Shown here piece after piece: positions 8,983-41,028 of a stretch of DNA of 64,000 bases. Source of the DNA: Candidatus Izemoplasmatales bacterium (lineage in GTDB: Bacteria > Bacillota_I > Bacilli_A > Izemoplasmatales > Hujiaoplasmataceae); assembly GCA_041649275.1 (NCBI GenBank), contig JBAZNL010000003.1, positions 34,116 through 98,115 of the forward strand. The letters are read 5' to 3'. The notes under the pieces are model-generated. The model was not told where the DNA came from, ran no database searches, and was given only the letters and a program-made list of their open reading frames with translations. The position numbers and the translations under genes are program-made. Positions within the stretch are counted from its first letter, which is position 1. The number at the start of each line of letters is the position of its first letter.

Positions 8983-8992
8983 GAGGAACCCC

Positions 8993-15743: not shown

Positions 15744-15756
15744 TATTTCAATCATA

Positions 15757-15787: not shown

Positions 15788-15896
15788 GTCGGCAGAAAGG
15801 GGGGATTTTCCCCCAACTCCAAAATTCCATTTTTCCGGAGGAGAAAGAAGAATCGTCTTTCCTTCTTGTTTATCGGAGTGATCGTTCAACCTTAAT

Positions 15897-15950: not shown

Positions 15951-16283
15951 ATATAGATGAATATGAATGCATTCTCAACAATAGAGACCGATGATTGTAA
16001 TAATGTCAATATCGATGCCATATGGAACGAAGATTTGGTGACGGATGGTGTGACGAATAATGACAGAAAAACACAACAATGATATGGGGTTCGCATGAGT
16101 TATGTTCAATGCAATGCGATACTGTTTTCAGTAATTCAAGCATATGCTGCAGGCGAAAGATATGACCCAATATCATTCGCCTTTCGCATGATTATTATCG
16201 AGAAATGAACACTTCAGCAATACAGTGCAATTAATTTGCTTTTGTATATGTTAAAATATCATTGCGATGAGTGAGGTGACATT

Positions 16284-17045: not shown

Positions 17046-17046
17046 T

Positions 17047-17463: not shown

Positions 17464-17676
17464 TTGCGGTTGAAATCCGATTTTCTAGAATTTCATAGGA
17501 TAGAGCCCATAGCTTATTGTCTTTTTGATTGGTATGATTTCCGGGCAGAAGTCAGTAGTCCCATGCATATGGAACGGGATGGATTCGCAACTTTTTTTGT
17601 GGGGATGCAAAAAATGCTCCGCGGGGTGCGATTATGTATCTACACCATTTTCAGCCCTACATATCTGACAATCATC

Positions 17677-17707
17677 GGTTTGATACGTCCGTATCAAGCC
17701 TTTTTTT
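17677..17707 (+). terminator. rho-independent terminator (repeat copy 2, near-identical to 15757-15787)
   Basis: The stem GGTTTGATAC pairs with GTATCAAGCC across loop gtcc and is followed by TTTTTTT. The preceding CAATCAT is also shared with copy 1. Confidence 0.6.
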
Positions 17708-17902
17708 CACCAACGGGGTGTTCTTGATCATAACCCCTTCAGGAAATTGCCATCAACGGGAGTCAAGAATCGATGTGACAACAGGAAGAAAAGACGCCAC
17801 CAAAAAAAAGAATGTGAGAAATCCACATCACAATTATTTAAACCCGCAAACAGATTGCGATGATAGAATATAGGTGTGGATCAATCTGGCGGGAGAGACA
17901 AG

Positions 17903-18433
17903 ATGCTGGAAGTCGTGAATGCAATTCTTGATTATATTGAAAATCACCTATTTGAGGAAATCACGCTTGAAGACCTGTCGGCATATTCCCATTACTCAAA
18001 GTTTCATCTGAGTCGGGAGTTCAATAAAATGGTCGGGACCTCCATACCGGAATACATCACAAGGCGACGACTTTCGAATGCCGCCATCATGATTTTTGAA
18101 ACGGACAAAACCATAAGCTATATTGCAAATACTCATGGCTATAACTCGGACAAGTATTTTAGCACCGTATTCAAGAAGAATTTCGGAGTATCTCCAAGTG
18201 CCTATCGAAACAACCCGGGAATGATCTATCTGTACCCAAAAAGAATGATGAAAGGAGGAGAACAAAAAACCATGAGGAGACTGGATGATATCGTTTGTGA
18301 AGTCAATGTTTCGTCCAAAGACGACAATGAAGTTCGAGTGACCCTAAGCAACATTGAAGTCAATGGAAAAGACGTTACTTCATCCATCGAACTTCAAGAT
18401 AACGGGAACGTGAAAGTCACTTTCTTGGAATGA
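17903..18433 (+). CDS. AraC-family regulator with N-terminal HTH, paralog of 16284-17045
   Basis: The AraC HTH signature is present (YSKFHLSREFNK..., ANTHGYNSDKYFSTVFKK). ATG at 17903 has a GGGAGAG RBS. GTG at 17876 is an alternative start. There is a short C-terminal beta-rich domain. Confidence 0.7.
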   Translation: MLEVVNAILDYIENHLFEEITLEDLSAYSHYSKFHLSREFNKMVGTSIPEYITRRRLSNAAIMIFETDKTISYIANTHGYNSDKYFSTVFKKNFGVSPSAYRNNPGMIYLYPKRMMKGGEQKTMRRLDDIVCEVNVSSKDDNEVRVTLSNIEVNGKDVTSSIELQDNGNVKVTFLE

Positions 18434-18837
18434 ATCCATATCCGATCAAGTAGTCAAAGACGTTTGGCTACTTTTTCTTTTTATATATCCCAACCAGTAT
18501 ATGTGCATCGAGAGAAACACGGATAAGGGCGAGGTGCGGCCGACAAAGGTCGTTTGAATTGATTGCGGCACGCCGACCGAATGACTCAATGGTTCAACGG
18601 CTCCTCCTCACGAATCGATGCATCGATGATATCCACGCACGTCAGGAATGTCGAACAGCCCGCTCCTCCTCGAAACCAAGCATGGTTGCCTCATAGGCCA
18701 AATCTTGATGATCCAACCAAGAGACGTTCATGAAGCCGTTTGACCAATTCGAAGTGTGTCGAATGGCGTTTGATGTTTCTCTTTTTCCATGTTATCGGCT
18801 TTACATTTTTGATGAGACATAGTACAATATGAACATC

Positions 18838-18853
18838 GACTACATTTGTAGTC
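18838..18853. promoter_or_regulatory. perfect 16-bp palindrome GACTACATTTGTAGTC, candidate BlaI/MecI-type operator
   Basis: TACA-N-TGTA dyads are the recognised core of BlaI/MecI/CopY operators. This one sits 22 nt upstream of the BlaI-like gene start and overlaps a TACAAT -10-like element. Confidence 0.55.
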
Positions 18854-18875
18854 AGAAATAGAGAGGCTATCAAAC

Positions 18876-19811
18876 ATGATCAAGCTTACCGACGCCGAAT
18901 GGCAGGTCATGCGTATTGTTTGGGAAAGACAACCGGTAACGGCAAATGAAGCGACCCAGGATTTGTATGAATCCCAGGCCTGGACCATCAGCACCGTCAA
19001 GACGCTGTTGTCAAGACTCGTGGATAAAGGATTGATCCAGGCTGAACCTCAAGGAAAGAAGTACCTCTACCAAGCGATTTGGACCGAACGCGAATGCGTC
19101 ATATCGGAAATGAAACAGGCGTTGCATCGAATCTATGGCGGACATCTGCGATATCAATCCAACCGATTTGCTTTCTTTGGTGCGCAATTGAACACGGATT
19201 TGAAGGATTTCGCTTCGTTTCTGGAAGACAGGACGGATCGAATCGAAAATCGATACGCGTTCAAGATGGATGAGAGACAAGAAATCATCATGTATCGGAC
19301 GAAAGCACGAATGCATTCGGCATTGGGTCTGGCAGACGCACCGGAATGGCTCCGTGCCGCCTGGGTATGGGACATCATCCATTTGGCTCCCGAAGACAGC
19401 TTTGACGACATCCAATTCAAGGCCGCCGCATTGTTCGTGTGGATGCAAAGAGTCATTTTCAGTGTGAACTCATCCGCACCCTACTGGTTATCTCAAGGAA
19501 TTGCGGCATTTGAGAGCGACCTTATCAATCCTTCTCGCCTTGCGAAGACGATGGAATCGCTGCTGCCAACTCTCCGTCAAGATGCCGTGCTGAATCTTGG
19601 CAATCATTATGAACTGTTCCGTCTTCAGGGGGGTTATGAGTTGACGACGACGGCTGTTCAATTCATCGTCAGGACATTTGGATGGGACAGACTCGTAGAA
19701 TTCGTGAAACATCCGGATGCATATGAGGAATTGTTCCATCTTTCTCAGGACGATTTCTGGCATGAATGGTTCAAGCAAGTCGACACAGAGTATTCAGGGA
19801 AGGAATCCTAA
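18876..19811 (+). CDS. BlaI/MecI/CopY-family winged-helix repressor fused to an approximately 190-aa C-terminal domain of unknown function
   Basis: The N-terminus MIKLTDAEWQVMRIVWERQPVTANEATQDL...WTISTVKTLLSRLVDKGLI is the penicillinase-repressor DNA-binding domain. The total length is 311 aa, whereas canonical BlaI is about 125 aa. Confidence 0.7.
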   Translation: MIKLTDAEWQVMRIVWERQPVTANEATQDLYESQAWTISTVKTLLSRLVDKGLIQAEPQGKKYLYQAIWTERECVISEMKQALHRIYGGHLRYQSNRFAFFGAQLNTDLKDFASFLEDRTDRIENRYAFKMDERQEIIMYRTKARMHSALGLADAPEWLRAAWVWDIIHLAPEDSFDDIQFKAAALFVWMQRVIFSVNSSAPYWLSQGIAAFESDLINPSRLAKTMESLLPTLRQDAVLNLGNHYELFRLQGGYELTTTAVQFIVRTFGWDRLVEFVKHPDAYEELFHLSQDDFWHEWFKQVDTEYSGKES

Positions 19812-19813
19812 CC

Positions 19814-21307
19814 ATGATCACAAGAACGCTCAGAATGATCGTGATTTATGCGATTTGTATCTTTGCGATGGGTTGTACGGCCATTTCTACGACATCCACT
19901 GCCTCGATGACGAATTCCACCACCTCGACCACGACATCGTCAACCACCACCTCAACCACGACAGCGCCGACCACGGCGACGACTACGACAACGCCGACCA
20001 CCACCTCATCCACGACAACGTCATCCATCACGACGACCGGAACGACTACGGTTGCGACGACTTCGGTTGTGACATTGGAGCCTGGTCATTTCCCGCTATC
20101 GAAACTACAAACTGATTACGATCAATTTGTTCGATATTTGTCATACAATCCGCAGATTTTCACCAATCGGGTCGAACTGGAGGAGGTCATCGAAAGCCAG
20201 CGGGAGTTGCTTGCGGATGGAATGACCAGCCTGGAATTCTTCCGAGTGATTACCGTGGTGATGTCAGCGATTCGGTGCGGTCATTCTTTCGTCATCATCC
20301 CGTCTGCCATTATCGGAGAAGTGTTTGACGCCGAGTCGGCGTATCCGATTGATGTACGCCTGATCGAAGGGAAACTATATGTTGTCGGGATTGATGGAGA
20401 TACTCAATTGGAATTCGGGGATGAAATTGTGTCCATTGACGGTATCAGCACACAAGATGTTACGGCGGACATGATGCGATATTTGAGTGCTGACGGCGAA
20501 GGAACTGCGTACAAGACGATTGTTTTTAGCCAATACTACCTCTATTATTATCAGCTTTATCTCGCAACCGAAGAAGCTATCGATGTGGAATACATCGATG
20601 ACAGTACAGGTGCCAGCCAATCGGAGACACTCACGAGAAATTGTCCGAACGTGCACGGTTGGGTTCAAGAGGAACCGTTTGAAGCAACGTACGAAGATGA
20701 TGTCGCGATCATGACCTTACGGACCTTTTATCCAGAATATCCGTACACCTTGACGGATTTCTACCTGTTCTTTGAGGAATTCTTTCAAACGGTTGCGTCT
20801 CAGGGCATTCATAAAATGATTCTGGACATCCGTGGAAACGGAGGCGGAGATCCGCGAGTTGCCAGTCGGCTGCTTTCGTATCTGCTGCCTGAACCGGCAC
20901 CCTACTTCGCACCGGAAAGCCCGAATTACTATACTGGGCTCAAAGACCGCGTTCCCCTTTCTGAACCACATTATGATGGAAGACTCGCCACGCTTGCAGA
21001 CGCGTTTTGTTTTTCTACCTGTGGACATTTCGCCTCGTTATTACAATTTCACCAGGTGGGAGTCATCATCGGCGAGGAAACCGGCGGTGGATACACCTGT
21101 TCCGATACCTCAAGGAATTTTACCCTGTCGAACACGATGATGCAAATACGAACGTCGACAACTCAATGGACCGTCGCCGTGGAAGACATGACGAAGGGAA
21201 GGGGAGCCCTTCCAAGCATCCATGCCTATATGAGCCTTGAAGATTACCGAGATGAAGTCGATCGTGTTTACCTTACGGGAATCGAGTGGCTGAACGAGCA
21301 GGAATGA
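19814..21307 (+). CDS. S41-family (C-terminal processing / tail-specific) peptidase lipoprotein with Thr/Ser-rich linker
   Basis: The N-terminus CIFAMGC is a lipobox. A 70-aa T/S-rich low-complexity linker follows. The S41 motif MILDIRGNGGGD is present. The ATG lies 3 nt after the BlaI-like stop. Confidence 0.7.
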   Translation: MITRTLRMIVIYAICIFAMGCTAISTTSTASMTNSTTSTTTSSTTTSTTTAPTTATTTTTPTTTSSTTTSSITTTGTTTVATTSVVTLEPGHFPLSKLQTDYDQFVRYLSYNPQIFTNRVELEEVIESQRELLADGMTSLEFFRVITVVMSAIRCGHSFVIIPSAIIGEVFDAESAYPIDVRLIEGKLYVVGIDGDTQLEFGDEIVSIDGISTQDVTADMMRYLSADGEGTAYKTIVFSQYYLYYYQLYLATEEAIDVEYIDDSTGASQSETLTRNCPNVHGWVQEEPFEATYEDDVAIMTLRTFYPEYPYTLTDFYLFFEEFFQTVASQGIHKMILDIRGNGGGDPRVASRLLSYLLPEPAPYFAPESPNYYTGLKDRVPLSEPHYDGRLATLADAFCFSTCGHFASLLQFHQVGVIIGEETGGGYTCSDTSRNFTLSNTMMQIRTSTTQWTVAVEDMTKGRGALPSIHAYMSLEDYRDEVDRVYLTGIEWLNEQE

Positions 21308-21345
21308 TTACGAAATTCACGACAATATTACAAAAGGAGAATGAA

Positions 21346-22113
21346 ATGAATGAAGTAACGAATAACATTGAAAAGTACTACCACATTTTCAATACATTTG
21401 AACCGTTCAACAATTTCGTCAAGTATGCGATTAGGGATCATCGACCACAAATATTCGTTGACGATGAAGAACATTGCAAATGCGCAATCCTATATTTGAA
21501 GCCCGCCTATTTCATAATTGGAGAGCCGCGCGTTGAATATGCTGAAGGTGTCTTCAACCTGTTTCATAAAGACTCGTGGATCATTGCACAGTCGGAGCTT
21601 TGGAAGCAGGCCATAGAAGCATATTTCAAAGATCATGTCGCGACACACCCTAGAGTGCTTTTCAACTCCAGTTCACTGAACGTGGACCATATCATCAAGC
21701 AAAGAAAAGAAATGCCATCGGGGCTTTCGATCGTTCCGATTGAAAAGAAACACATCGAATCAGGCATGATTAATCATGATGTAATTCAAAGATTCTTTAC
21801 AAAGAGCGATTTTTTGGAAAACGGTTTTGGCTTTGCCCTCGTGGGTGAAGATGGGAAATGTGAAGGATTCTCTTTGACGAATTATCCGGTGATTGGAAAG
21901 GATATCGAACTGTATTTCAGAGTCGGGTATGATACATATCCCGACTATCGCTCGAAAGGGATGGGAACCAACCTGTGTACCTATTTCATCGAAGAAGCAT
22001 TCAGGCGTGGGTATAATCCGGTCTGGGATTCCGCAAACGATATATCATCCCACATCGCCAAAAAACTCGGGTACATCGCGGAAAAGGAATGGTATATGTA
22101 TCATATTCTATAA
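21346..22113 (+). CDS. GNAT-family N-acetyltransferase
   Basis: The C-terminal domain has the GNAT motif-A-like RSKGMGTNL and YNPVWDS. The start at 21346 has an AAAGGAGA RBS; the track's 21286 start would overlap the S41 gene. Confidence 0.6.
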   Translation: MNEVTNNIEKYYHIFNTFEPFNNFVKYAIRDHRPQIFVDDEEHCKCAILYLKPAYFIIGEPRVEYAEGVFNLFHKDSWIIAQSELWKQAIEAYFKDHVATHPRVLFNSSSLNVDHIIKQRKEMPSGLSIVPIEKKHIESGMINHDVIQRFFTKSDFLENGFGFALVGEDGKCEGFSLTNYPVIGKDIELYFRVGYDTYPDYRSKGMGTNLCTYFIEEAFRRGYNPVWDSANDISSHIAKKLGYIAEKEWYMYHIL

Positions 22114-22163
22114 CCGGTTGAGAAAAAGCGGATTGCTGCCGAAAATCCAAGGGAGTAAGTGGA

Positions 22164-23102
22164 ATGAAGAAATTGATTCTGTTCGTTTGTATGATCTGCT
22201 TATCATTTCTACATGGATGTTTTGAAATCTCCACACACATGGATACTCTAGACACAAGCACTACCGTAATCAGCACATCATCAATGACGACAAGTTTTGC
22301 GACTACTCAGAGTTCCGAAATCACGACTACGTTCATGAAAGCTGCTCTATTTGGCGAACCAGGCGTGACTCCGGAAATCTTCGCGCCCGGGTTCATCAGC
22401 ACCGAAACGAACTTCGAATTTGCTGGTACATTTTCACCAGATTATCGATATTACTTCTTTACGCGAAGAGCTCCCGAAGGTGCAAATCGGATTTTTTACT
22501 CAGAGTATATTGACGGACAGTGGTCACATGCGGAGCTATCACCGATCAGCGAAGATGTCGATGAATTTGAACCATTCATCACCCCCGACGGGAAAATGGT
22601 GTATTTCGGATCAATGCGTGATAATCGAAGCGATTATGCCATCTATCAAAGCGAATTTGCTAATGGCGCTTGGCAAACCCCTACATATTGTGATAATGGA
22701 TTGAATTCTGGATTCTCCATGTATGTTACTGTCTCAACATATGGGAATATCTATTTCACCGGTTTGAATGGCATTTACGTCATCAAGAATATGGAAGGGG
22801 AATTTCAATCAAGAGTATCTACGGGGATCGCAGGGGCGCATCCCTACATTTCACCAGATGAATCGTATATGTTGTTTGATAGGGAATCCGGATCAAGCAG
22901 ATACATATACATTACCATTCAGAATAATGGTCATTGGAGCACTCCCGTAAAACTGGGATCCGACATCAATCAATCCGGAGCTGAACAATTATGCCCATCG
23001 GTAACCACAGATGGAAAGTACTTTTTCTTCAGTCGTTTTATTGAAGGTGTCAGCAATATTTACTGGGTTGATGCATCGTGTCTGGATCAGTATCTCGATT
23101 GA
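22164..23102 (+). CDS. lipoprotein with WD40-like (PD40/TolB-type) beta-propeller repeats
   Basis: The N-terminus has a signal peptide and an LHGC lipobox, followed by a T/S-rich linker. Repeated segments (DGKMVYFGS, PYISPDESYMLFD, DGKYFFFSR) are typical of PD40 blades. Confidence 0.6.
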   Translation: MKKLILFVCMICLSFLHGCFEISTHMDTLDTSTTVISTSSMTTSFATTQSSEITTTFMKAALFGEPGVTPEIFAPGFISTETNFEFAGTFSPDYRYYFFTRRAPEGANRIFYSEYIDGQWSHAELSPISEDVDEFEPFITPDGKMVYFGSMRDNRSDYAIYQSEFANGAWQTPTYCDNGLNSGFSMYVTVSTYGNIYFTGLNGIYVIKNMEGEFQSRVSTGIAGAHPYISPDESYMLFDRESGSSRYIYITIQNNGHWSTPVKLGSDINQSGAEQLCPSVTTDGKYFFFSRFIEGVSNIYWVDASCLDQYLD

Positions 23103-31246: not shown

Positions 31247-31300
31247 CGCCATCGTCCCCCTAGTCCTTCAAAAATCCACAGATAGAAAAGGAGATTTCCC

Positions 31301-32701
31301 ATGACACCCCTGTTCCTCGAATTTCCCATCGGTCTCGTCGTCACGATCATCCTGCTCTTCTTCACCGGCATCATCTTCATCGTCTCGCGCTACAAGAAGT
31401 GCCCGGCGGACAAGATCATGGTCGTCTACGGCAAGGTCGGACGCAACAACGACGGTTCCAACAAATCCGCCCACTGCATCCACGGCGGCGCCAAGTTCAT
31501 CTGGCCGATCTTCCAGGCATACCAGTTCCTCGACCTCACGCCGATGTCGATCCAGGTCGACCTCAAGAACGCCCTCTCCCGCCAGAACATCCGCATCGAC
31601 GTCCCTTCGCGCTTCACCGTCGGCATCTCGACGGAGGTCGGGATCATGCAGAACGCGGCCGAGCGCATCCTCGGGCTCGGCCTCTCCGAGATCCAGGAAC
31701 TCGCCAAGGACATCATCTTCGGACAGCTCCGTCTCGTCATCGCGACGATGGACATCGAGGAGATCAACACCGACCGCGACAAGTTCCTCGAAGCCGTCTC
31801 CCGCAACGTCGAGACCGAGCTGAAGAAGATCGGCCTCCGCCTCATCAACGTCAACGTCACCGACATCAACGACGAATCCGGCTACATCCAGGCCCTCGGC
31901 AAGGAAGCCGCCGCGAAGGCGATCAACGACGCCAAGAAGTCCGTCGCCGAGAAGAACCGCGACGGTTCGATCGGCGAGGCGAACGCCGTCAAGGACCAGC
32001 GCATCCAGGTCGCCTCGGCGAACTCGACCGCGATCAAGGGCGAGAACGAATCGCTCGGACTCATCTCCCAGTCCAACGCCAGCCGCCGCGAGATCGAGGC
32101 AGAGGCGCTCCGCCGCGCCATCGCCGCCGAGAAGATCGCCGCCGCCAAGGCCCTCGAGGAATCCTACGTCGCCGAACAGAACGCCGAGACGGCCCGCGCC
32201 GCCCGCGAGAAGGCGACGCTCGAGGCCGACGTCATCGTCAAGACCGAGATCGAGAAGCAGAAGCGCGTCCTCGAGGCCGAGGCCGAAGCCGAACAGATCC
32301 GCCGCCGCGCGAAGGGCGAGGCGGACGGCATCTACTCGAAGATGGAAGCCCAGGCGCGAGGCAACCAGGAACTTCTGACGAAACAGGCCGAAGGCTTCGC
32401 CGAGATCGTCAGAGCCGCCGGCGGAAGCCCCGACGCCGCCATCAAGATGCTCATCACCGACAAGCTCGAAACGCTCGTCAAGACCCAGGTCGAGGCGATC
32501 AAGAACCTCAAGTTCGACAGGATCACCGTCTGGGACGGCGGCGCGAAGGACGGCTCGTCGACGACGGCGAACTTCGCCTCGTCGCTCATGAAGTCGATCC
32601 CGCCGATGAACGACCTGTTCAAGATGGCGGGCATGGATCTGCCCAAGTATCTCGGCGAGGAGACGCCCGCCCCCGAGGCGAAGCCCGAACCGAAGAAGTA
32701 A
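31301..32701 (+). CDS. floT: flotillin (SPFH/band-7 domain, FloT/YuaG-like)
   Basis: There is an N-terminal membrane hairpin and an SPFH domain. A long Ala/Glu-rich coiled-coil (EA repeats) follows. The C-terminal tail is also present. The product is 466 aa. Confidence 0.85.
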   Translation: MTPLFLEFPIGLVVTIILLFFTGIIFIVSRYKKCPADKIMVVYGKVGRNNDGSNKSAHCIHGGAKFIWPIFQAYQFLDLTPMSIQVDLKNALSRQNIRIDVPSRFTVGISTEVGIMQNAAERILGLGLSEIQELAKDIIFGQLRLVIATMDIEEINTDRDKFLEAVSRNVETELKKIGLRLINVNVTDINDESGYIQALGKEAAAKAINDAKKSVAEKNRDGSIGEANAVKDQRIQVASANSTAIKGENESLGLISQSNASRREIEAEALRRAIAAEKIAAAKALEESYVAEQNAETARAAREKATLEADVIVKTEIEKQKRVLEAEAEAEQIRRRAKGEADGIYSKMEAQARGNQELLTKQAEGFAEIVRAAGGSPDAAIKMLITDKLETLVKTQVEAIKNLKFDRITVWDGGAKDGSSTTANFASSLMKSIPPMNDLFKMAGMDLPKYLGEETPAPEAKPEPKK

Positions 32702-32757
32702 TCCGAATGAAAACGACGCGCGGTCCCTCGCAGGACCGCGCGTCTCGTATTTTCGAT

Positions 32758-33594
32758 TCAGTATTTCGCCAGGTCCGGATGGCTGCCGAAGCGGCCGATT
32801 CCGGAAAGCGTCGCGATCTTCGCCTCGTCCTCGTCGTCGAGCGTGAAGGAGAAGACGTCGAGGTTCTCTTTGATCCTTGCCGGCGTGACCGATTTGGTAA
32901 GCGGATGGATCCCGCGATCGAGGATCCAGCGCAAGACGACCTGGGGGACGGTGCGGGCGTGCTTCGAAGCGATCTCTGCGAGGACCGGGTAGTCGAAGAC
33001 GTGGCCGCGCATCATCGGACTCCATGCCTGGACGAGGATTCCCCGGGCGCGGCACCAGGCGACGACGTCGTCGGCGGGATTTCCGGGATGGAGTTCGACC
33101 TGGTCGACCATGGGCTTGACCTCGGCGGCGTTCCAGAGCGGTTCGAGGTGGTGGGGAAGGAAGTTCGAGACGCCGATCGCGCGGACCTTGCCCTCGCGGT
33201 AGAGGCGTTCCATCGCCCGCCAGGTCTCGAGGTTCGTCGCCCTGTGGTCCGGGAAGCGGTTGACCGCCGGCCAGTGGATCAGGTAGAGGTCGACATACTC
33301 CACGCCGAGCTTGGCGCGGCTCGCCCCGAAGGCGCGCAGGGTCGATTCGTAGCCCTGGTCGTCGTTCCACACCTTGGTGGTGAGGAAGACCTCGGAGCGG
33401 GGGATGCCCGCATCGCGGATCGCGGCGCCGACGCCGGTCTCGTTTCCGTAGACCGCGGCGGTGTCGATCGCGCGGTATCCGGCCGACAGGGCGGCGCGGA
33501 CGGCGTTGTAGACGACGTCGCCGTCGGGGATCTGCCAGGTTCCGAAGCCGATCGGGGGGATCGCGACGCCGTTGGATAGGGTGAATGGTTTCAT
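32758..33594 (-). CDS. aldo/keto reductase (2,5-diketo-D-gluconate reductase-like AKR)
   Basis: The protein begins MKPFTLSNGVAIPPIGFGTWQ. DTAAVYGNE provides the catalytic Tyr. LIHWP and IGVSNF are classic AKR motifs. Confidence 0.85.
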   Translation of the reverse strand: MKPFTLSNGVAIPPIGFGTWQIPDGDVVYNAVRAALSAGYRAIDTAAVYGNETGVGAAIRDAGIPRSEVFLTTKVWNDDQGYESTLRAFGASRAKLGVEYVDLYLIHWPAVNRFPDHRATNLETWRAMERLYREGKVRAIGVSNFLPHHLEPLWNAAEVKPMVDQVELHPGNPADDVVAWCRARGILVQAWSPMMRGHVFDYPVLAEIASKHARTVPQVVLRWILDRGIHPLTKSVTPARIKENLDVFSFTLDDEDEAKIATLSGIGRFGSHPDLAKY

Positions 33595-34411: not shown

Positions 34412-34487
34412 GGGACTGTAGCTCAATTGGGAGAGCACCAGCATGGCATGTTGGGGGTCGCGAGTTCGAGCCTCGTCAGTTCCACCA
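34412..34487 (+). tRNA. tRNA-Ala (anticodon GGC)
   Basis: The 76-nt sequence GGGACTGTAGCTCAATTGGGAGAGCACCAGCATGGCATGTTGGGGGTCGCGAGTTCGAGCCTCGTCAGTTCCACCA folds as a cloverleaf. It carries the G3:U70 Ala identity pair, the anticodon loop ATGGCAT and an encoded CCA. Confidence 0.85.
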
Positions 34488-34496: not shown

Positions 34497-34528
34497 TCAG
34501 GCATCCAAGTTTGGATGCCTTTTTGTTT
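34497..34528 (+). terminator. rho-independent terminator after tRNA-Ala
   Basis: The stem GGCATCCAA pairs with TTGGATGCC across loop gt and is followed by TTTTTGTTT. Confidence 0.7.
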
Positions 34529-34611
34529 AATGCTTCAATGAGAATATTTGACCCAAAATGGTTGAATATGTCCCAGAACGTGCTATAATATAAATATAAA
34601 GGGTGGGCGCG

Positions 34612-35661
34612 ATGAAAAAAAAGAATATTCTTAACTTAATAAAATACTATAGTGAGAAGAATGATATCCAGTTTCGCAACGAAGCATATGATATTGCACG
34701 GGACTTTGATTCGGCCGGTGACTATCAATTGGCTGAATACATTATGTCGCTTTTGTCAAAAAATAACGTGTTCTATCCTCAAGTTAATGATGATAAGGAG
34801 TCATTCTTCAAAAAAGTGGATGTAGGAAATGAGTCTTTACCACTACCGAAGGCGATCAGCGATGACATCGTGGGTATGATCAACGCCATTAATCACAATG
34901 CTGGGATTAATAAGTTTATGTTTATTGGCGCACCGGGTACAGGTAAAACCGAAACTGTAAAGCAAGTCGCAAGATTACTTGAAAGACAACTTTTTATGAT
35001 TGACACTAGCGAACTCATTGATAGTAAACTTGGTCAGACAGCCAAAAATATCAGTGATGCATTTGCCGAGATAAACACTTTACCCTATCCCGCTAAGGTG
35101 CTCATCTTAATTGACGAACTAGATTCTATTGCTTTGGATCGAATCAACAACAATGATTTACGAGAAATGGGTAGAGTAACTTCAGCCTTCTTTAAGGAGT
35201 TGGACAATTTGAACGAAAATATAGTATTGGTTGCAACAACCAATCTTTTTGAGCGTTTTGATAAAGCCTTAACAAGGAGATTCGATTCCATCATTGATTT
35301 TAATAGATATACAAAAGAAGATTTAGTTGAGGTTGCAGAGAGCATCCTAAACACTCAACTTAAACGTTTCAAGACGGCTGGACATGACATGAAATTGTTC
35401 AAAAAAATTATCAATTGCATGACGATAATTCCTTACCCTGGTGAATTAAAAAATTTAATACGCTCTTCGATAGCTTTTAGCAATCCGAATAACGAATTTG
35501 ATTATCTTCGTAGAATGATAAGGAACGTTATACCGAATATTGGCGAAATATCTCCTAATAATTTGCAAAAAAGAGGATTCACAATACGAGAAATCGAAGT
35601 GTTGACTGGCGTTTCAAAAAGCTCCGTACAACGTGAACTGAAAGGTGAAAACCATGAATGA
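34612..35661 (+). CDS. AAA+ ATPase (classic-clade, SpoVK/CbbX-like) with C-terminal HTH; candidate antiphage ATPase (IetA-like)
   Basis: Walker A is GAPGTGKT and Walker B is ILIDELD. Sensor-1 is VATTN and the arginine finger region is ALTRRFD. The C-terminal approximately 40 aa (GFTIREIEVLTGVSKSSVQRELK) is HTH-like. GC is about 36%. Its own TATAAT -10 (34584-34589) and an AAGGGTGGG RBS precede the ATG. Confidence 0.75.
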   Translation: MKKKNILNLIKYYSEKNDIQFRNEAYDIARDFDSAGDYQLAEYIMSLLSKNNVFYPQVNDDKESFFKKVDVGNESLPLPKAISDDIVGMINAINHNAGINKFMFIGAPGTGKTETVKQVARLLERQLFMIDTSELIDSKLGQTAKNISDAFAEINTLPYPAKVLILIDELDSIALDRINNNDLREMGRVTSAFFKELDNLNENIVLVATTNLFERFDKALTRRFDSIIDFNRYTKEDLVEVAESILNTQLKRFKTAGHDMKLFKKIINCMTIIPYPGELKNLIRSSIAFSNPNNEFDYLRRMIRNVIPNIGEISPNNLQKRGFTIREIEVLTGVSKSSVQRELKGENHE

Positions 35662-37891
35662 TATTCTGCAGTTAAAAGGCCCGTTCGAAAGTAGAAAAAA
35701 CCCAAATAGACCCGCAGCTCCTACATTGCCAAGCAATCAATCTGTATGTAGCAATCATATTCGCAAACTAGGTCAAGACCTTCTGGATATTGCTGCTTTT
35801 TGGCGCGCTGAGAATTTTCTTCCTGATGTGTTGCTGAGCGCCCATTATCGAAAAGTTGCTGCCAAAAGCAATCGAATAGATAGTTTCCTTTCATATAAAG
35901 ATGTTACTGCCGAACAAACAATAGTAGGAGCGAAGTATGGTGGTACTCCATCTGACCCATATCATATCATCACGCATTATGTTTCAATCGACGCCATTGT
36001 ATCATCCGTTGAAAAAGCAAATGAAACCGCTAAAATTCTTGACGAATATTTCACTGGAGTTGCCACTACATCTAGTTTTAATAGTGCCGAACGTATTTCA
36101 TTGATTGATTTCTCTCGCTATTCAATATCAAAGACAACGTTTCAACGAATGGTTGTTGATGCGTCATTTATTACTAAATTCGCAATCGATAAGTCAGAAT
36201 TCCTCACCAATGAAACAGCGATCATTTCATTTTTTGATGTAAAGATGAAGATTGATGATCTCCTTCGGAAATTTGGCATTAACCCGACTGTGATTCGCGC
36301 ACTTGATAATACATCAGTTTTATTAGGCCGAGAAGAAATCGAACTGATCCTGCGGAAGGCGCCATATTTAGTTGCTATGGCAACGGTAGATTTTTCGCGA
36401 TTGTTACCAACCGATTTCGCTCCCTCAAGCGAGTCAACTCCAGGCGTTATTCCTTCCCCAAAAAACGAGCCAATTATTGGAGTGATTGACACTCTATTTG
36501 ATTCATCGGTTTACTTCTCTGATTGGGTCGAACACCATAACGACATCTCATCAGAGATTCCTGCGCAATCATCAGATTATCAACATGGCACTTCGGTGTG
36601 CTCGCTCCTTGTTGATGGGCCTTCACTCAATCCTGAATTGAATGATGGGTGTGGTCGTTTTCGTGTTCGACACTTTGGGATCGCGCTGCATGCAGGTTTT
36701 AGTTCTTTCACAATAATAAATCAAATTAAGACGATAATTTCAAAGAACACGGAAATACATGTATGGAACATCTCGTTGGGATCAGATCAAGAAGTGAATA
36801 GGAACTTTATATCCGCTGAAGCATCCGTGCTTGATCAAATTCAATATGAAAACGACATAACATTCATAATTTCAGGAACCAATAAACGGGCAGATGAACC
36901 CAAAAAACGTATTGGCGCCCCTGCTGATTCCGTGAATGCGATTGTAGTGAACTCTGTGGACTCTCAGAATAATCCTGTGAATTACTCGCGTTCCGGTCCG
37001 GTATTATCATTCTTTACAAAACCTGATGTCAGTTACTATGGCGGTGATTCACACAAACGAATACGTGTTTGCGATCATCTCGGATTGTCATATGTCTGTG
37101 GCACATCCTATGCCGCTCCATGGATATCTAGGAAGATGGCATTTCTTGTGGATGTTCTCGGTTTCCCACGTGAAATTGCTAAAGCATTATTAATTGATGC
37201 CGCGATAGGGTGGAACGAAACGCACTCATTTGAGGAACGTTCTTTGAAAGGTCATGGTGTCGTACCCGTTCGTATCGATGACATTGTCAAATCAGAAGAT
37301 GATGAAATCAAGTTTGTCGTTTCGGGCGTATCTGAACAATATGAGACCTATAGTTATCAATTTGCGGTGCCAAAGTATAAAAACGAATACCCCTTTCTTA
37401 CCAAAGCGACGTTATGTTATTTTCCACGGTGTTCTAGAAATCAAGGCGTAGATTACACTAACACTGAACTTGACTTATACTTTGGCAGAATCGATGAAGA
37501 TAACCATATCAAATCAATTAACAATAACAAACAGTGTATAGAAGACAATGATATTCATCCAGTATATGAGGCTGATGCAAGAAAATATTATCGGAAATGG
37601 GACAACATCAAGCATATCACAGACGAAATAAAGGAACGTCTTATCCCTAGGAAAGCATATCAGGGTAAACTTTGGGGGATGAAGGTTGTCACGAAGGAAC
37701 GACTGAAATCTCGAGATGGAATTGGTATTCGATTCGGCGTAGTTGTCACACTAAAAGAAATTCATGGAGTGAATCGAATTCAAGATTTCATCTCTGAATG
37801 CTCACTTAGAGGTTGGCTTGTTAACCGAATCAATGTTGAAAGCAGAATACAAGTCTATAATAAAGCTAGCGAAGAAATCAAATTCGATTAA
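35654..37891 (+). CDS. intracellular multi-domain subtilisin-like S8 serine peptidase; candidate antiphage protease (IetS-like)
   Basis: There is no signal peptide. The S8 catalytic triad motifs are present in the central domain: Asp in IIGVIDTLFD, His in YQHGTSVCSLL and Ser in CGTSYAAPWI. An approximately 265-aa N-terminal domain and an approximately 220-aa C-terminal domain are of unknown function. The start overlaps the ATPase stop, indicating translational coupling. Confidence 0.75.
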   Translation: MNDILQLKGPFESRKNPNRPAAPTLPSNQSVCSNHIRKLGQDLLDIAAFWRAENFLPDVLLSAHYRKVAAKSNRIDSFLSYKDVTAEQTIVGAKYGGTPSDPYHIITHYVSIDAIVSSVEKANETAKILDEYFTGVATTSSFNSAERISLIDFSRYSISKTTFQRMVVDASFITKFAIDKSEFLTNETAIISFFDVKMKIDDLLRKFGINPTVIRALDNTSVLLGREEIELILRKAPYLVAMATVDFSRLLPTDFAPSSESTPGVIPSPKNEPIIGVIDTLFDSSVYFSDWVEHHNDISSEIPAQSSDYQHGTSVCSLLVDGPSLNPELNDGCGRFRVRHFGIALHAGFSSFTIINQIKTIISKNTEIHVWNISLGSDQEVNRNFISAEASVLDQIQYENDITFIISGTNKRADEPKKRIGAPADSVNAIVVNSVDSQNNPVNYSRSGPVLSFFTKPDVSYYGGDSHKRIRVCDHLGLSYVCGTSYAAPWISRKMAFLVDVLGFPREIAKALLIDAAIGWNETHSFEERSLKGHGVVPVRIDDIVKSEDDEIKFVVSGVSEQYETYSYQFAVPKYKNEYPFLTKATLCYFPRCSRNQGVDYTNTELDLYFGRIDEDNHIKSINNNKQCIEDNDIHPVYEADARKYYRKWDNIKHITDEIKERLIPRKAYQGKLWGMKVVTKERLKSRDGIGIRFGVVVTLKEIHGVNRIQDFISECSLRGWLVNRINVESRIQVYNKASEEIKFD

Positions 37892-38337
37892 TCATCTCCA
37901 ACTCTCGATGATGGTAGGTTGATTTATTAATATTGGTTGAGTTGAGTATATCCTATTACTCCTAGGGACCTTGACGAAGTGTACAATTGAAGCTCATGCA
38001 TAATCGTCGAGTGAATTTTCAAGCGTTCTTAGGCCTATAGGTGAAACGAACGTACAGTGAAGTAATCATTTACAATAAATTCAGCTACAAAAAAATAGTC
38101 ATAGTGCTGTCACATTAAAAAAACATAATGGGAGAGATGACAAAGTAGTTTTAGAGCGGCCTTGATAATCCAATTTCTATACTATTTACGATAAGTGTGA
38201 ATATGCTTTTTGTCTTCAACAACATGTGGCATCCACATCCTGGGTGCCTTAATCATCATTCCTACAGGCGAGATGGTAAAATTTCAGCGATTCCCTTATA
38301 ATGGAAACAGACTGCATCAATGACTAGGAGACACGAT

Positions 38338-39741
38338 ATGACCCGATCCGCACTTGGCAAGAAACTCGCGTTCGCTTCCGCCGACATCTTCGGCGGCGGC
38401 TCCTTCAACATCATCAACTTCCTGCTTCCCGGCTTTCTCGCGCTCACGGTCGGGATCAGCCCCTACTGGATCAGCTTCATCATGCTGATCGCGCGCTTCT
38501 GGGACGCGATCACCGACCCGCTCATGGGATACCTTTCCGACCACACGAAGTCGCGGCTCGGGAAGCGCCGGATCTATCTCGTGATCTCGGCGCCGCTCGT
38601 CCTCGCCGGGATGTACTTCCTGTTCTTCCCGTTCGCCTTCCCGAGCCATACCCTCCGCGTCATCGCGGCGCTCACCGCGTACCTCGTCTTCACGATGATC
38701 CAGACCTCGGTGATGATCCCCTACTATTCGCTCTCGAGCGAGATCTCGAGCGACTACCAGGAACGGGCCTCGTACAATTCCTATCGTCTCGGCTTCAGCA
38801 TCTTTTCCTCGATCCTCTGCGTCGCCGTCCCCGGCATCATCGTCTCGCTCTTCCCCGACGACCGCGTCGGCTACCAGGTGATGAGCCTGATCTTCGGCAC
38901 CTTCTTCGGCCTCAGCGTGCTCTTCACCGGCCTCTTCGCGAAGGAGGAGATCACGACGCCGGCGGTCACCTCGAAGCTCTCCCTCAGGGAGCTCGTCAAG
39001 CCGCTCGGCCTCCGACCCTTCCGCCAGTACCTCGGGATGTTCCTGTTCCTGCAGATGTCGATGGCGGTCATGAGCGGACTGTTCTTCTTCTACGTCGACT
39101 TCTACATCGTCAAGGACGTCACCGCCGCCGGGGAATCCTCGATGGTCGGCATGATCGCCGCGGCGTTGATGTTCGCGATGCAGATCGTCGCCCTGCCCGT
39201 CTACATCCGGATGATCGGGAAGAAGGGGAAGACCTACGCCTACCGCTTCGGCGCGATCGTCTGGATCGTCACCGCGCTCACGCTCCTCGTGATCCCCGCG
39301 AACGTGAACCCGGTCGTGATCTACGTCGTCGGCGCGCTGATGGGCTTCGGGATCAGCGGTCCCGGCCTCGTCCCGCACACGATGTACGGCGACGTCGTCG
39401 ACGCCGGCCAGCTCAGGTTCAGGGACCGCCTCGACGGACAGATGAGCGGCTTCACCAACTTCATCAACAAGGTCGCGCAGGCCGTCGGCCTCGCCGCCGT
39501 GATGGCCCTGATCGGCCTCGCCGGCTTTCAGTCGCAGGATCTGACGCAGCCGCCGCTCACCGAACAGCCGCCGGAAGCGATGCTCGCGATCCGGCTCATC
39601 ATGGCCCTCGTCCCGCTCGTCTTCATGGGCGTCGGGATTCTCATCTCGACCCGCTACCGGATCGATGCGGCGACCCAGAAGAAGATCGCCGAGACCATCC
39701 GCGACGGCGCGGACGCCGAAGAATTGATCCGGAACCTCTGA
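38338..39741 (+). CDS. MFS transporter of the GPH (glycoside-pentoside-hexuronide:cation symporter, MFS_2) type
   Basis: There are 12 predicted TM helices. The N-terminal region ASADIFGGGSFNIINFLLPGFL...DAITDPLMGYLSDHTKSRLGKRR is the hallmark of MelB/GPH-like carriers. TATAAT at 38299 and an AGGAGA RBS precede it. Confidence 0.75.
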   Translation: MTRSALGKKLAFASADIFGGGSFNIINFLLPGFLALTVGISPYWISFIMLIARFWDAITDPLMGYLSDHTKSRLGKRRIYLVISAPLVLAGMYFLFFPFAFPSHTLRVIAALTAYLVFTMIQTSVMIPYYSLSSEISSDYQERASYNSYRLGFSIFSSILCVAVPGIIVSLFPDDRVGYQVMSLIFGTFFGLSVLFTGLFAKEEITTPAVTSKLSLRELVKPLGLRPFRQYLGMFLFLQMSMAVMSGLFFFYVDFYIVKDVTAAGESSMVGMIAAALMFAMQIVALPVYIRMIGKKGKTYAYRFGAIVWIVTALTLLVIPANVNPVVIYVVGALMGFGISGPGLVPHTMYGDVVDAGQLRFRDRLDGQMSGFTNFINKVAQAVGLAAVMALIGLAGFQSQDLTQPPLTEQPPEAMLAIRLIMALVPLVFMGVGILISTRYRIDAATQKKIAETIRDGADAEELIRNL

Positions 39742-39743
39742 AG

Positions 39744-40904
39744 ATGAAGCGTCCGAATCCGCTCCTGTACGCGACGCTCGGCTTCCTGCTTCGGATCTAC
39801 GCCTTCTTCAAGGGGCAGCGGATCCGCCGCCACGCGAAGATCAAGGGGCCGGCGATCGTCCTCTCCAACCACACGTCCTTCTACGACTTCATCTACACCA
39901 CCGCGGCGGTCTATCCGAAGCGCGTCAGCTACATGGCCGCCGGGAAGATGTTCTACGACCCCCTCCTCGGCTTCTTCCTCCGGATGGCGCGGGCGTTCCC
40001 CAAATGCCTCTTCCAGGCCGACCCGGTCGCGACCATGAACGTCTTCCGGATCCTCCGGCGGAAGGGGATCGTCTCGATCTTCCCCGAGGGGCAGATCTCG
40101 CCGATCGGCGTCACCCAGCCGATCGCGCCGTCGATCGCCAAGCTGCTCAAGAAGGCCAAGGTCGACGTCTTCGCCGTCCGCCACCAGGGCGCCTACCTCG
40201 TCAACCCGCCGTGGTCGAAGAAGAACTTCCCCGGACGGATCCAGACCGACGTCGAACTCGTCCTGACGAAGGAACGGCTGGCTTCGCTTACGGAAGAAGA
40301 GGTCCTCGCGGCCGTCGTCGAGGCGCTCCGCTTCAACGTCTCCTCCTTCGATCCCGAAGGCAGGTACCGTTACCGCATCAACGACATCGAGAACCTCGAA
40401 AGCGTCCTCTACCGCTGCCCGCGATGCGGCGGCGAGACGCTTCATGCGGACGGACGCGACCTCGTCTGCCCGGCGTGCGGGAACCGCCTTTCCTACGATC
40501 CCCACGGAAAAGTCGGCGGACTCCGGATCGACGACCTCTATCACGTGCAGGAGGCGGAGATGCGCATGCGGATCGAATCCGACCCGGCGTTCCGCCTCGA
40601 AGCCGACGTCCGGCTCGAGAGTTTCCGGGACGAGCGGCTCGTCGAGGTCGGCCGCGGCCGACTCTCCCTGACCCATGACGGATACCGCTACGAGGGCACC
40701 GTCGACGGCAGGGAAACCGTCCTCGCGTTCGATCCCAAGAACGTCCCGACGCTGCCGAGCGACCTCGGCAGAAACGTCCAGATCTACGAAGGCTACCTGA
40801 TCTACCAGTTCGCGATGGACGTCCCGACGATCCCGACGAAGTTCGTCATCGCCGCCGAAATCCTGCACGCGCGCAGCCTTTCCGGCGCGGCCGACGCGGC
40901 CTAG
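39744..40904 (+). CDS. lysophospholipid (1-acyl-glycerol-3-phosphate type, PlsC-family) acyltransferase with C-terminal zinc-ribbon domain
   Basis: The HX4D motif (NHTSFYD) and the FPEG motif are present. CPRCGG...CPACGN forms a Cys4 ribbon in the C-terminal 150 aa. The start is 3 nt after the MFS stop. Confidence 0.7.
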   Translation: MKRPNPLLYATLGFLLRIYAFFKGQRIRRHAKIKGPAIVLSNHTSFYDFIYTTAAVYPKRVSYMAAGKMFYDPLLGFFLRMARAFPKCLFQADPVATMNVFRILRRKGIVSIFPEGQISPIGVTQPIAPSIAKLLKKAKVDVFAVRHQGAYLVNPPWSKKNFPGRIQTDVELVLTKERLASLTEEEVLAAVVEALRFNVSSFDPEGRYRYRINDIENLESVLYRCPRCGGETLHADGRDLVCPACGNRLSYDPHGKVGGLRIDDLYHVQEAEMRMRIESDPAFRLEADVRLESFRDERLVEVGRGRLSLTHDGYRYEGTVDGRETVLAFDPKNVPTLPSDLGRNVQIYEGYLIYQFAMDVPTIPTKFVIAAEILHARSLSGAADAA

Positions 40905-41028
40905 ACGACCGATCGACCGCGCATGATTTCGCAAATTCGACCGAAATATGACGGAAAATCGCCCGATTGCCATATACAAGGGCATGAAATGGTGTTATAA
41001 TCGACATCAAAAAGGGGGCATTGAAAAG

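What the first reader, a model, noticed from the sequence alone, without database searches (positions are those of the whole stretch)
34497..38300. Low-GC islet at tRNA-Ala carrying a coupled AAA+ ATPase (with HTH tail) and an intracellular multi-domain S8 subtilase: candidate antiphage module
A 3.8 kb stretch of about 38% GC sits in a 65% GC backbone. It starts right after the tRNA-Ala terminator and ends abruptly at the MFS gene promoter. It has its own TATAAT promoter and two translationally coupled genes. The first is a classic-clade AAA+ ATPase with Walker A GAPGTGKT and Walker B ILIDELD, and a C-terminal helix-turn-helix. The second is a 746-aa subtilase with no signal peptide; its S8 catalytic triad motifs are flanked by an approximately 265-aa N-terminal and an approximately 220-aa C-terminal domain of unknown function. 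Pairing of an ATPase with an S8 protease is the architecture I recall for the IetAS (Gao_Iet) antiphage system. The HTH on the ATPase and the two extra protease domains are not part of what I remember of that system and could define a distinct variant. There is no integrase and no obvious att repeat, which fits a defence islet rather than an intact mobile element.
Basis: partly seen in the sequence, partly recalled or inferred. Interest (0 to 1): 0.8.

Follow-up and report, generated by a model that had tools for sequence, protein, structure and literature searches.

The report
Horizontally acquired IetAS defence/toxin-antitoxin islet

Summary
A 38.6% GC stretch (34531-38268, bounded by an empty site in a related genome) sits in a 61% GC backbone right after tRNA-Ala. 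GC3 is 0.34-0.36 against 0.89-0.93 in flanking genes. It holds two overlapping genes: ietA (34612-35661, 349 aa) and ietS (35654-37891, 745 aa, no signal peptide). Both hit PADLOC IetA and IetS profiles (E 2e-36 and 3e-62). The pair is conserved in all fetched loci with enough sequence, and its neighbours elsewhere are rich in defence genes. It is therefore an IetAS module, but not a distinct variant. The ATPase tail is invariant across the family, and a proteobacterial IetA carries the same motif. About 740-aa three-domain proteases occur in both clades, and the S8 core and C-domain align collinearly between them. Only the N-terminal ~266 aa is clade-specific by sequence. Two additions: an imperfect copy of the tRNA terminator hairpin flanks the islet on both sides, and two GTCCC boxes bracket the -35 in 62 of 81 family promoters, a likely IetA operator. 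Verdict: new member of a known kind, modest interest.

The parts
34412..34487 (+). tRNA-Ala (GGC), host gene next to the insertion site
   Evidence: ARAGORN; Rfam tRNA 57.6 bits; identical in L077 and L001
34499..34520 (+). Left copy of the hairpin AGGCATCCAAGTTTGGATGCCT followed by a T-run (tRNA terminator; left member of the flanking repeat)
   Evidence: Terminator scan; the empty-site genome L077 has one such hairpin; pattern unique to the two borders
34531..38268 (.). Inserted low-GC islet as bounded by the empty site in L077, where about 58 bp take its place
   Evidence: blastn of window against L077/L001; junction alignments; GC 0.386 against 0.611. The exact left edge is uncertain between 34531 and about 34545
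34547..34558 (+). Box 1 of the candidate IetA operator (TTTGACCCAAAA; core GACCC 34550-34554, one mismatch to GTCCC), just upstream of the -35
   Evidence: Conserved two-box architecture in 62/81 ietA upstream regions against 51/16450 background windows; expected 0.0065 per islet by shuffling
34562..34589 (+). Sigma-70-type promoter: -35 TTGAAT (34562-67), 16-nt spacer holding box 2 GTCCC (34570-74), extended -10 TGcTATAAT (34581-89)
   Evidence: positionally conserved in homologous loci
34612..35661 (+). ietA: 349-aa classic-clade AAA+ ATPase (antitoxin). N-terminal three-helix bundle (aa 3-48), Walker A 34927-34950 (K112 at 34945-47), Walker B D168/E169, RRFD Arg fingers, C-terminal HTH (aa about 313-344, 35548-35643)
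   Evidence: PADLOC IetA PDLC02196 E 2.4e-36 over aa 6-350; Pfam AAA; AF2 model pLDDT 81; Foldseek hits to Rpt/Vps4/p97/Rix7; alignment A4; weak HTH Pfam hits
35654..37891 (+). ietS: 745-aa cytoplasmic S8 protease (toxin/effector). N-domain aa 1-266 (orphan by sequence), S8 core aa about 270-525 (D279 at 36488-90, H311 at 36584-86, N410 at 36881-83, S485 at 37106-08), C-domain aa about 528-745 (beta-rich)
37892..38227 (.). Non-coding low-GC tail of the islet (36.6% GC over 37892-38268), no recognisable content
   Evidence: No ORF above 37 aa; no Rfam hit; no homology to other ietAS loci
38228..38248 (+). Right, degenerate copy of the hairpin (GGCATCCACATCCTGGGTGCC, no T-run); right member of the flanking repeat. 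Host homology resumes at 38269 (MFS promoter)

Best explanation
This is a horizontally acquired IetAS module: a two-gene toxin-antitoxin and abortive-infection system inserted into a variable site between tRNA-Ala and an MFS transporter gene. The host is a GC-rich Izemoplasmatales/Acholeplasmatales bacterium. Shown here: the insertion, its foreign composition, family membership of both proteins, intact catalytic motifs, the cytoplasmic location of the protease, conserved gene pairing and overlap, and a defence-rich neighbourhood for the clade. Taken from published work on relatives: IetS is a toxic protease, IetA is the ATPase that neutralises it, and phage infection or a single phage protein unleashes toxicity (abortive infection). 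Inferred: IetA assembles as an AAA+ ring and uses ATP to keep IetS inactive. Through its C-terminal helix-turn-helix it also binds two GTCCC boxes that bracket the -35 of its own promoter and represses the operon, as type II antitoxins do. A phage cue that blocks or titrates IetA would free IetS, which then cuts cellular or phage proteins and stops the infected cell. The clade-specific N-domain of IetS is a candidate for IetA docking or trigger sensing.
For: HMM membership: PADLOC IetA 2.4e-36 (full length) and IetS 3.4e-62; NCBIfam IteA/IteS are the top hits. Homologues: 53-58% (IetS) and 61-80% (IetA) identical over 99-100% of the length, always about 345 and about 742 aa. The closest pair, L092, is 80% and 72% identical. 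Pairing: an ATPase lies directly upstream of the protease in every context read, and an S8 ORF follows ietA in most metagenome loci with enough downstream sequence. Active sites are invariant. AAA+ unfoldase-like fold; subtilase fold. Horizontal transfer: GC3 0.34-0.36 against 0.89-0.93; empty site in L077 and different cargo in L001. Defence context: type I R-M (L084), DUF4062 plus AAA_15/21 genes (L086), RT-like gene plus AbiE plus recombinases (L092), type III R-M (L091); PADLOC census 286 against 24 families. Operator. HTH. Literature: protease toxin and ATPase antitoxin, anti-phage mechanism unknown (PMC13069673); Mollicutes AAA/S8 pair of 353 and 757 aa shown to be a functional toxin-antitoxin pair (PMC8562856); B. 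cereus ietAS acts by abortive infection and is triggered by SPbeta YosG (bioRxiv 10.1101/2022.08.27.505566).
Against: Nothing functional was tested for this locus or, strictly, for this subclade as an anti-phage system. The validated B. cereus system has a different IetA N-terminus and no GTCCC boxes. Scores are far below the NCBIfam equivalog cut-offs (107.6 against 510; 152 against 900). The IetS N-domain is not alignable with proteobacterial IetS. The IetA pore-loop position lacks the usual aromatic residue (DSKLGQT), so processive unfolding is uncertain. Box 1 carries a mismatch in this locus. Extreme codon mismatch with the host may limit expression. IetA binding to the boxes is inferred only; the apparent HTH-box covariation rests on one lineage.
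Confidence: 0.78

Rival explanations
1. It is only an addiction (post-segregational killing) module that stabilises the mobile DNA it came with, with no role in phage defence in this host.
For: IetAS was first described as a plasmid-stabilising toxin-antitoxin system (cited in PMC13069673). The Mollicutes relatives were validated only as toxin-antitoxin pairs (PMC8562856). The family occurs on plasmids of Clostridium, Macrococcus and others.
Against: The islet is chromosomal and holds nothing else to stabilise. Neighbours of the clade are strongly enriched in defence genes. Other IetAS systems protect against phage by abortive infection. The two roles do not exclude each other.
Confidence: 0.14
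2. It is a recently landed, poorly expressed or silent passenger that will decay, with no current function.
For: GC3 is 0.34 against 0.9 in the host, with no sign of amelioration. There is no mobility gene and a featureless 336-bp tail. Box 1 of the operator is mutated. Truncated ietA copies exist in some metagenome loci.
Against: Both ORFs are intact over 3.3 kb, and all invariant catalytic and HTH residues are kept. The promoter, ribosome-binding site and overlap are intact.
Confidence: 0.06
3. It is a housekeeping or secreted subtilase with a dedicated AAA+ chaperone for folding or export.
Against: There is no signal peptide or transmembrane segment. It is absent from the closest relative's genome at this site. 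Composition is foreign, the best HMM hits are IetA and IetS, and relatives are toxic when expressed alone.
Confidence: 0.02

Closest known systems
IetAS (Gao_Iet) anti-phage system / pTiC58 ietA-ietS toxin-antitoxin pair (proteobacterial type; here represented by the A. tumefaciens pAtG3_79a pair, L090)
   Same: Gene order ATPase then S8 protease with overlapping genes. Protease of about 740 aa with an N-region of about 269 aa, an S8 core and a C-domain. The S8 core and C-domain are homologous and collinear (prob 99.3%). AAA+ core is homologous (prob 99.5%). Both ATPases end in an HTH-like motif.
   Different: The N-terminal ~266 aa of IetS is not alignable. The IetA N-terminal ~100 aa and lid region are not aligned. 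The pore loop is KLG rather than YLG. Scores lie far below the NCBIfam equivalog cut-offs, as they also do for L090 itself. I could not read the founding paper; what I say about it comes from citing papers and my own knowledge.
Mollicutes TA132/133 (AAA-ATPase / subtilisin-like protease toxin-antitoxin pair of Mycoplasma mycoides subsp. capri and relatives; PMC8562856)
   Same: Same sizes (353 and 757 aa against 349 and 745), order and overlap; chromosomal; patchy distribution with flanking direct repeats and signs of horizontal transfer. A Mollicutes pair (M. hyorhinis, L091) aligns full length with ours (43% for IetS in the MAFFT alignment; 40.6% by tblastn), N-domain included, and its IetA has the same tail. 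The host here belongs to a related order.
   Different: Those systems were tested for toxicity and neutralisation only, not for phage defence.
B. cereus m1293 ietAS (abortive infection; triggered by SPbeta YosG; bioRxiv 10.1101/2022.08.27.505566)
   Same: Firmicutes ietAS with its native promoter; a two-gene ATPase plus protease system; the best experimental model for how such a module defends.
   Different: The IetA N-terminus (MTSSELMKKLF...) lacks this clade's invariant MKKxNxxNLI motif, and the 215 bp upstream have no GTCCC boxes. Only the first ~85 residues were readable, so the degree of relatedness is unknown.
ietHAS (Liu-DS4; PMC13069673)
   Same: IetA plus IetS core.
   Different: ietHAS needs an added SNF2-type helicase, IetH. 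The islet here has only the two genes.

Membership tests
IetAS (Gao_Iet) | Two adjacent, co-oriented genes: AAA+ ATPase followed by S8 serine protease | tested here: met
   ietA 34612-35661 and ietS 35654-37891, 8-nt overlap; the same arrangement in all homologous loci read
IetAS (Gao_Iet) | ATPase matches IetA profile HMMs | tested here: met
   PADLOC PDLC02196 E 2.4e-36, aa 6-350 against profile 4-372/374; three further IetA models at 1e-14 to 1e-26
IetAS (Gao_Iet) | Protease matches IetS profile HMMs | tested here: met
   PADLOC PDLC02197 E 3.4e-62, aa 259-737 against 239-749/749; five IetS models in all with E <= 1e-23, and three weaker
IetAS (Gao_Iet) | Equivalog-level identity to the validated proteins (NCBIfam IteA_antiphage / IteS_antiphage cut-offs) | tested here: not met
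   107.6 bits against cut-off 510; 152.3 against 900. The A. tumefaciens pair also fails (231 and 104 bits), so these models cover only a narrow subgroup
IetAS (Gao_Iet) | Intact ATPase (Walker A/B, Arg fingers) and protease (Asp/His/Ser) active sites | tested here: met
   GAPGTGKT, DE168-169, RRFD; D279, H311, S485, N410; all invariant in the alignments
IetAS (Gao_Iet) | System-level call by PADLOC or DefenseFinder | not testable with these tools
   Only the component HMMs could be run
IetAS (Gao_Iet) | Protease toxic, neutralised by the ATPase; protection against phage requiring both activities | not testable with these tools
   Known for relatives only
IetAS (Gao_Iet) | Homologous pairs lie among defence genes | tested here: met
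   137 neighbours hit 286 PADLOC families at E <= 1e-10 against 24 for 127 control neighbours. This counts families, not proteins, and the control comes from another genomic context.
Mollicutes TA132/133 clade | Full-length homology, N-domain included, to a Mollicutes AAA/S8 pair | tested here: met
   M. hyorhinis pair: 40.6% by tblastn over 100% of IetS, 43% in the alignment; its IetA has the same N-terminal motif and tail. A direct comparison with the tested M. mycoides proteins was not possible
tRNA-linked integrative island | Integrase or recombinase gene in the element | tested here: not met
   Only two ORFs; the tail has no ORF above 37 aa
tRNA-linked integrative island | Direct repeats at both ends, one copy in the empty site | tested here: inconclusive
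   An imperfect hairpin repeat lies at 34500 and 38228 only, with one copy in L077. The repeat does not include the tRNA 3' end, is about 70% identical with a gap, and the repeat finder missed it

The most novel reading that the evidence does not exclude
The Firmicutes/Mollicutes-type IetAS may be a mechanistically distinct subtype. In it, IetA would be a DNA-bound AAA+ repressor-antitoxin sitting on two GTCCC boxes at its own promoter, and the clade-specific N-domain of IetS (or IetA's release from DNA) would be the phage sensor. Promoter occupancy, ATPase state and protease release would then be coupled. Autoregulation alone seems likely (about 0.55); the coupled sensing model is speculative.
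Probability: 0.15. Interest if true: 0.55.

Novelty: new member of a known kind. Interest (0 to 1): 0.3.

Why it matters
For genome annotation, this is a clean textbook case. A known defence/toxin-antitoxin module dropped into a tRNA-adjacent hotspot, with an empty site available in a sister genome, and the two proteins are currently labelled only 'ATP-binding protein' and 'S8 family peptidase'. For IetAS biology, whose mechanism is still reported as unknown, two by-products could help experiments. First, a conserved two-box promoter element (62 of 81 loci) paired with an invariant C-terminal HTH on IetA gives a directly testable autoregulation hypothesis. Second, the S8 core and C-domain are conserved across phyla while the equally long N-domain is not alignable, which marks the N-domain as the likely specificity determinant. 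Neither changes the classification of this locus.

Tried and rejected
- An exact-protein look-up of the flanking MFS gene found nothing on record; the genome-contig scan replaced it.
- The founding pTiC58 paper (PMC2704731) is not held.
- The B. cereus m1293 ietAS sequence is truncated in the stored supplement, so only about 85 residues of IetA and 215 bp upstream could be compared.
- M. hyorhinis genes had to be translated with table 4 after two failed calls.
- The repeat finder did not report the flanking hairpin repeat because the two copies differ by an indel; a regex found it.
Whether the two N-domains share a fold therefore stays open.
- The N-domain profile gave only noise against PDB (E 0.34 and 0.97), nothing in Pfam at E <= 10, and hhalign probability 0.1% against proteobacterial IetS.
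It says nothing about carriage on phages.
- Rfam found nothing credible in the islet apart from the tRNA.
- The secreted-protease reading was rejected: no signal peptide, and the islet is absent from the sister genome.
- An ietHAS-type three-gene variant was rejected because there is no helicase gene.
Full report
**1.

A sliding-window profile shows GC falling from 0.61-0.69 to 0.33-0.43 between about 34400 and 38300 and recovering just as abruptly. The islet as bounded below (34531-38268) is 38.6% GC, and the rest of the window is 61.1%. Third-codon-position GC is 0.357 for ietA and 0.338 for ietS, against 0.885-0.928 for four flanking genes.

ARAGORN and Rfam place tRNA-Ala(GGC) at 34412-34487. 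It is followed by a 9-bp-stem hairpin plus a T-run at 34499-34520.

Two ORFs fill the islet. From the raw sequence the likely starts are:
- ATG 34612, preceded by GGGTGGG, giving a 349-aa IetA.
- ATG 35654, preceded by GGTGA, giving a 745-aa IetS. This start overlaps the ietA stop codon (ATGAATGA, 8 nt).

A TTGAAT-16-TATAAT promoter with a TG extension lies at 34562-34589. As a consensus match it is no better than chance (11 sites found, 12.8 expected), but its position is conserved across homologous loci (section 5).

Walker A GAPGTGKT, Walker B ILIDELD and the S8 residues D279, H311, N410 and S485 are all present. IetS has no hydrophobic N-terminus and no transmembrane-grade segment.

**2. 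Host, insertion site and borders**

A scan of one genome per species with the flanking MFS transporter identified the backbone as an Izemoplasmatales/Acholeplasmatales lineage. The IetS and IetA proteins exist verbatim in NCBI as 'S8 family peptidase' and 'ATP-binding protein' of a Candidatus Izemoplasmatales MAG, on a 147,760-bp contig.

The three closest relatives show what the site looks like without the islet:
- L077 (LaPlata bin-270, 76-85% DNA identity in the three aligned segments) aligns up to window 34530 and resumes at 38269, with only about 58 bp in between. This is an empty site.
- L001 (UBA12489) has a different 1.2-kb insert at the same place, a 295-aa ORF.

The tRNA-Ala/MFS intergenic region is therefore a variable hotspot.

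The junction alignments show that the empty site has one hairpin, GCATCCACAGTGTGGGTGC plus a T-run. The window has two:
- a clean one with a T-run at 34500;
- a degenerate one without a T-run at 38228 (GGCATCCACATCCTGGGTGCC), 20 bp before host homology resumes.

The pattern GGCATCCA-N3-8-TGG[AG]TGCC occurs on the + strand nowhere else in the 64 kb. This looks like the scar of site-specific or repeat-mediated insertion.

The islet carries no recombinase. Its 336-bp tail (37892-38227) has no ORF above 37 aa, no Rfam match and no similarity to other ietAS loci. How it was inserted is unresolved.

**3. What the genes are**

| Library | IetA (ATPase) | IetS (protease) |
|---|---|---|
| PADLOC | four IetA models; best E 2.4e-36, aa 6-350 on profile 4-372/374 | eight IetS models; best E 3.4e-62, aa 259-737 on 239-749/749 |
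| NCBIfam | IteA_antiphage is the top hit, 107.6 bits (cut-off 510) | IteS_antiphage is the top hit, 152.3 bits (cut-off 900) |
| Pfam | AAA, aa 106-234 | Peptidase_S8, aa 274-524 |

Both NCBIfam scores are far below the equivalog cut-offs. A bona fide proteobacterial pair from an Agrobacterium plasmid (L090) also fails them, so those models are narrow.

PDB holds no relative of IetS by sequence. IetA's core is closest to Cdc48/p97-type classic AAA+ modules.

AlphaFold models are confident:
- IetS: pLDDT 82, pTM 0.82.
- IetA: pLDDT 81.

The IetA model shows an N-terminal three-helix bundle, a disordered linker, one AAA cassette and three short C-terminal helices (315-320, 325-332, 336-344).

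**4. Is it a distinct variant? Largely no**

IetS homologues at 49-58% identity cover 100% of the query and are 735-749 aa long. They come from Turicibacter, Enterococcus, Listeria, Staphylococcus, lactobacilli, Clostridium plasmids, Acholeplasma and Mycoplasma. IetA homologues at 61-80% identity cover 99-100% and are mostly 342-356 aa long.

The HTH tail is standard:
- The motif GFTxREIExLTGxSKSxxxREL is invariant or nearly so in 35 sequences.
- It gets weak hits to seven different HTH Pfam families over the same ~25 residues.
- The proteobacterial IetA of L090 ends in a matching motif, LSQHKVSDITGVSRDTIRKY.

The three-domain protease is also standard. Proteobacterial IetS relatives are 735-741 aa. 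A profile-profile comparison of the two clades aligns 269-702 with 270-709 at 99.3% probability. The S8 core and the C-domain are therefore homologous and collinear.

The exception is the N-terminal ~266 aa. It is well folded in the model, but it has no Pfam or PDB match and does not align with the equally long proteobacterial N-region (hhalign probability 0.1%). Either way, the whole large Firmicutes/Mollicutes clade shares it, not this locus alone.

**5. A conserved promoter element**

Aligning the ietA upstream regions of five loci whose flanks are otherwise unrelated revealed two GTCCC boxes 20-21 bp apart. The first abuts the -35 and the second lies in the spacer before an extended -10.

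I then fetched 80 metagenome loci with the IetA alignment:
- 62 of 81 upstream regions carry GTCCC-N14-17-GTCCC, against 51 of 16,450 background 120-nt windows from the same loci.
- In the window the boxes are GACCC (34550) and GTCCC (34570). Within the AT-rich islet, 0.0065 such pairs are expected by shuffling.
- Three related loci with GTCTC boxes have a different putative recognition helix, SRSTIARTL instead of SKS[QS]V[SA]REL. This is a single lineage, so it is only suggestive.

Together with the invariant HTH, this points to IetA repressing its own promoter, as type II antitoxins commonly do. I found no paper describing this, although the library is incomplete.

**6. Context of relatives**

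| Locus | Source | Neighbours of the ietAS pair |
|---|---|---|
| L092 | metagenome; closest pair (IetA 80%, IetS 72%) | 995-aa RT-like gene, split serine recombinase, AbiEii, tyrosine integrase, Bro/ANT genes |
| L084 | Acholeplasmataceae MAG | type I R-M system, a protein kinase, Macro-domain and YobI-ATPase genes |
| L086 | E. faecium | DUF4062, DUF3427 and AAA_15/21 genes |
| L091 | M. hyorhinis | type III R-M genes |
| L081 | Turicibacter | agr and bacteriocin genes, transposases |

DNA homology between the window and L092 runs exactly from the ietA ATG to the ietS stop codon.

As a census, 137 neighbour ORFs from 50 loci hit 286 PADLOC families at E <= 1e-10, including SIR2, CBASS cyclases, type II methyltransferases, AriA, AbiLi and WYL. 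The 127 neighbours of the MFS gene in low-GC Acholeplasmatales genomes hit 24. This counts families rather than proteins and uses a single control, so it is semi-quantitative.

**7. Mechanism**

Published work on relatives shows the following:
- The protease is the toxin and the ATPase is the antitoxin. ietA-null constructs cannot be made, protease activity is needed for defence, and the anti-phage mechanism is unknown (PMC13069673).
- A Mollicutes AAA/S8 pair of 353 and 757 aa is toxic in E. coli (a 3-log drop) and fully neutralised by its ATPase. Homologues from three other mycoplasmas also work (PMC8562856).
- A B. cereus ietAS defends by abortive infection and becomes toxic when the SPbeta protein YosG is expressed (bioRxiv 10.1101/2022.08.27.505566). 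By its IetA N-terminus and promoter, that system belongs to a different subclade.

My inference for this locus is that IetA, as an ATP-driven ring, keeps cytoplasmic IetS inactive and represses the operon through its HTH. A phage cue would disable IetA, and IetS would then arrest the cell.

Two caveats apply. The pore-loop-1 position in this clade is DSK[LM]GQT, without the usual aromatic residue, whereas the proteobacterial IetA has YLG. Threading may therefore not be the mode of control. Nothing here was tested experimentally.

**8. Verdict**

This is a genuine, recently acquired IetAS module, and a new member of a known kind. The suggestion of a distinct variant was not, apart from the clade-wide orphan N-domain. 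The 'no att repeat' statement needs correcting. Interest is modest. The conserved operator and the contrast between the conserved C-domain and the unalignable N-domain are useful leads for IetAS biology rather than discoveries about this locus.

Noticed in passing
window 15500-23100: A second low-GC island (GC 0.34-0.47) lies directly after tRNA-Leu(GAG) at 15659-15743. It encodes two AraC-type regulators, a BlaI/MecI-like repressor, an S41 peptidase, a GNAT acetyltransferase and a PD40-repeat protein, with no integrase. tRNA-adjacent AT-rich insertions therefore recur in this genome.
   Followed up: partly
whole window; L001-L080: The backbone is 61% GC with GC3 of about 0.9. Yet its relatives by the MFS gene are Izemoplasmatales/Acholeplasmatales genomes of mostly 31-40% GC. 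Only a few (L001 57%, L057/L077 60-61%, L010/L014 50-52%) are GC-rich, so this is a GC-rich lineage inside a low-GC order.
   Followed up: no
L001 8710-9940: The same tRNA-Ala/MFS intergenic site holds a different 1.2-kb cargo in MAG UBA12489: a 295-aa ORF at 8920-9807 with a hydrophobic N-terminus. It is followed by the same GGCATCCA...TGGATGCC hairpin, so the site is a variable hotspot.
   Followed up: partly
L092 2389-16582: The closest ietAS relative sits in an integrative element. A 995-aa reverse-transcriptase-like gene lies directly upstream, and a split serine recombinase, an AbiEii gene (with an adjacent 252-aa ORF upstream), a tyrosine integrase and Bro/ANT genes lie downstream. The RT-like gene next to ietAS was not examined.
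   Followed up: no
window 35014-35046 (IetA aa 135-145): The pore-loop-1 position of this IetA clade reads DSK[LM]GQT, invariant but without the aromatic residue typical of AAA+ translocases. The proteobacterial IetA (L090) has YLG. The N-terminal three-helix bundle, linker and single AAA cassette with an RRFD motif resemble the Vps4/spastin layout.
   Followed up: partly
L158, L159, L167 upstream of ietA: These loci have GTCTC boxes in place of the GTCCC boxes, and a different putative recognition helix (SRSTIARTL). This may be co-variation of operator and HTH, but it rests on one lineage only.
   Followed up: partly
L163, L169, L171, L173: ietA is truncated in these metagenome loci (87, 181, 234 and 74 aa). 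They are either decaying copies or assembly errors.
   Followed up: no
window 31268-33370 (-), 38317-39378 (-), 39654-40985 (-): Long ORFs antisense to real genes in the GC-rich backbone have Arg/Asp/Glu/Gly/Pro-rich low-complexity translations. They are artefacts of high GC, not genes.
   Followed up: no
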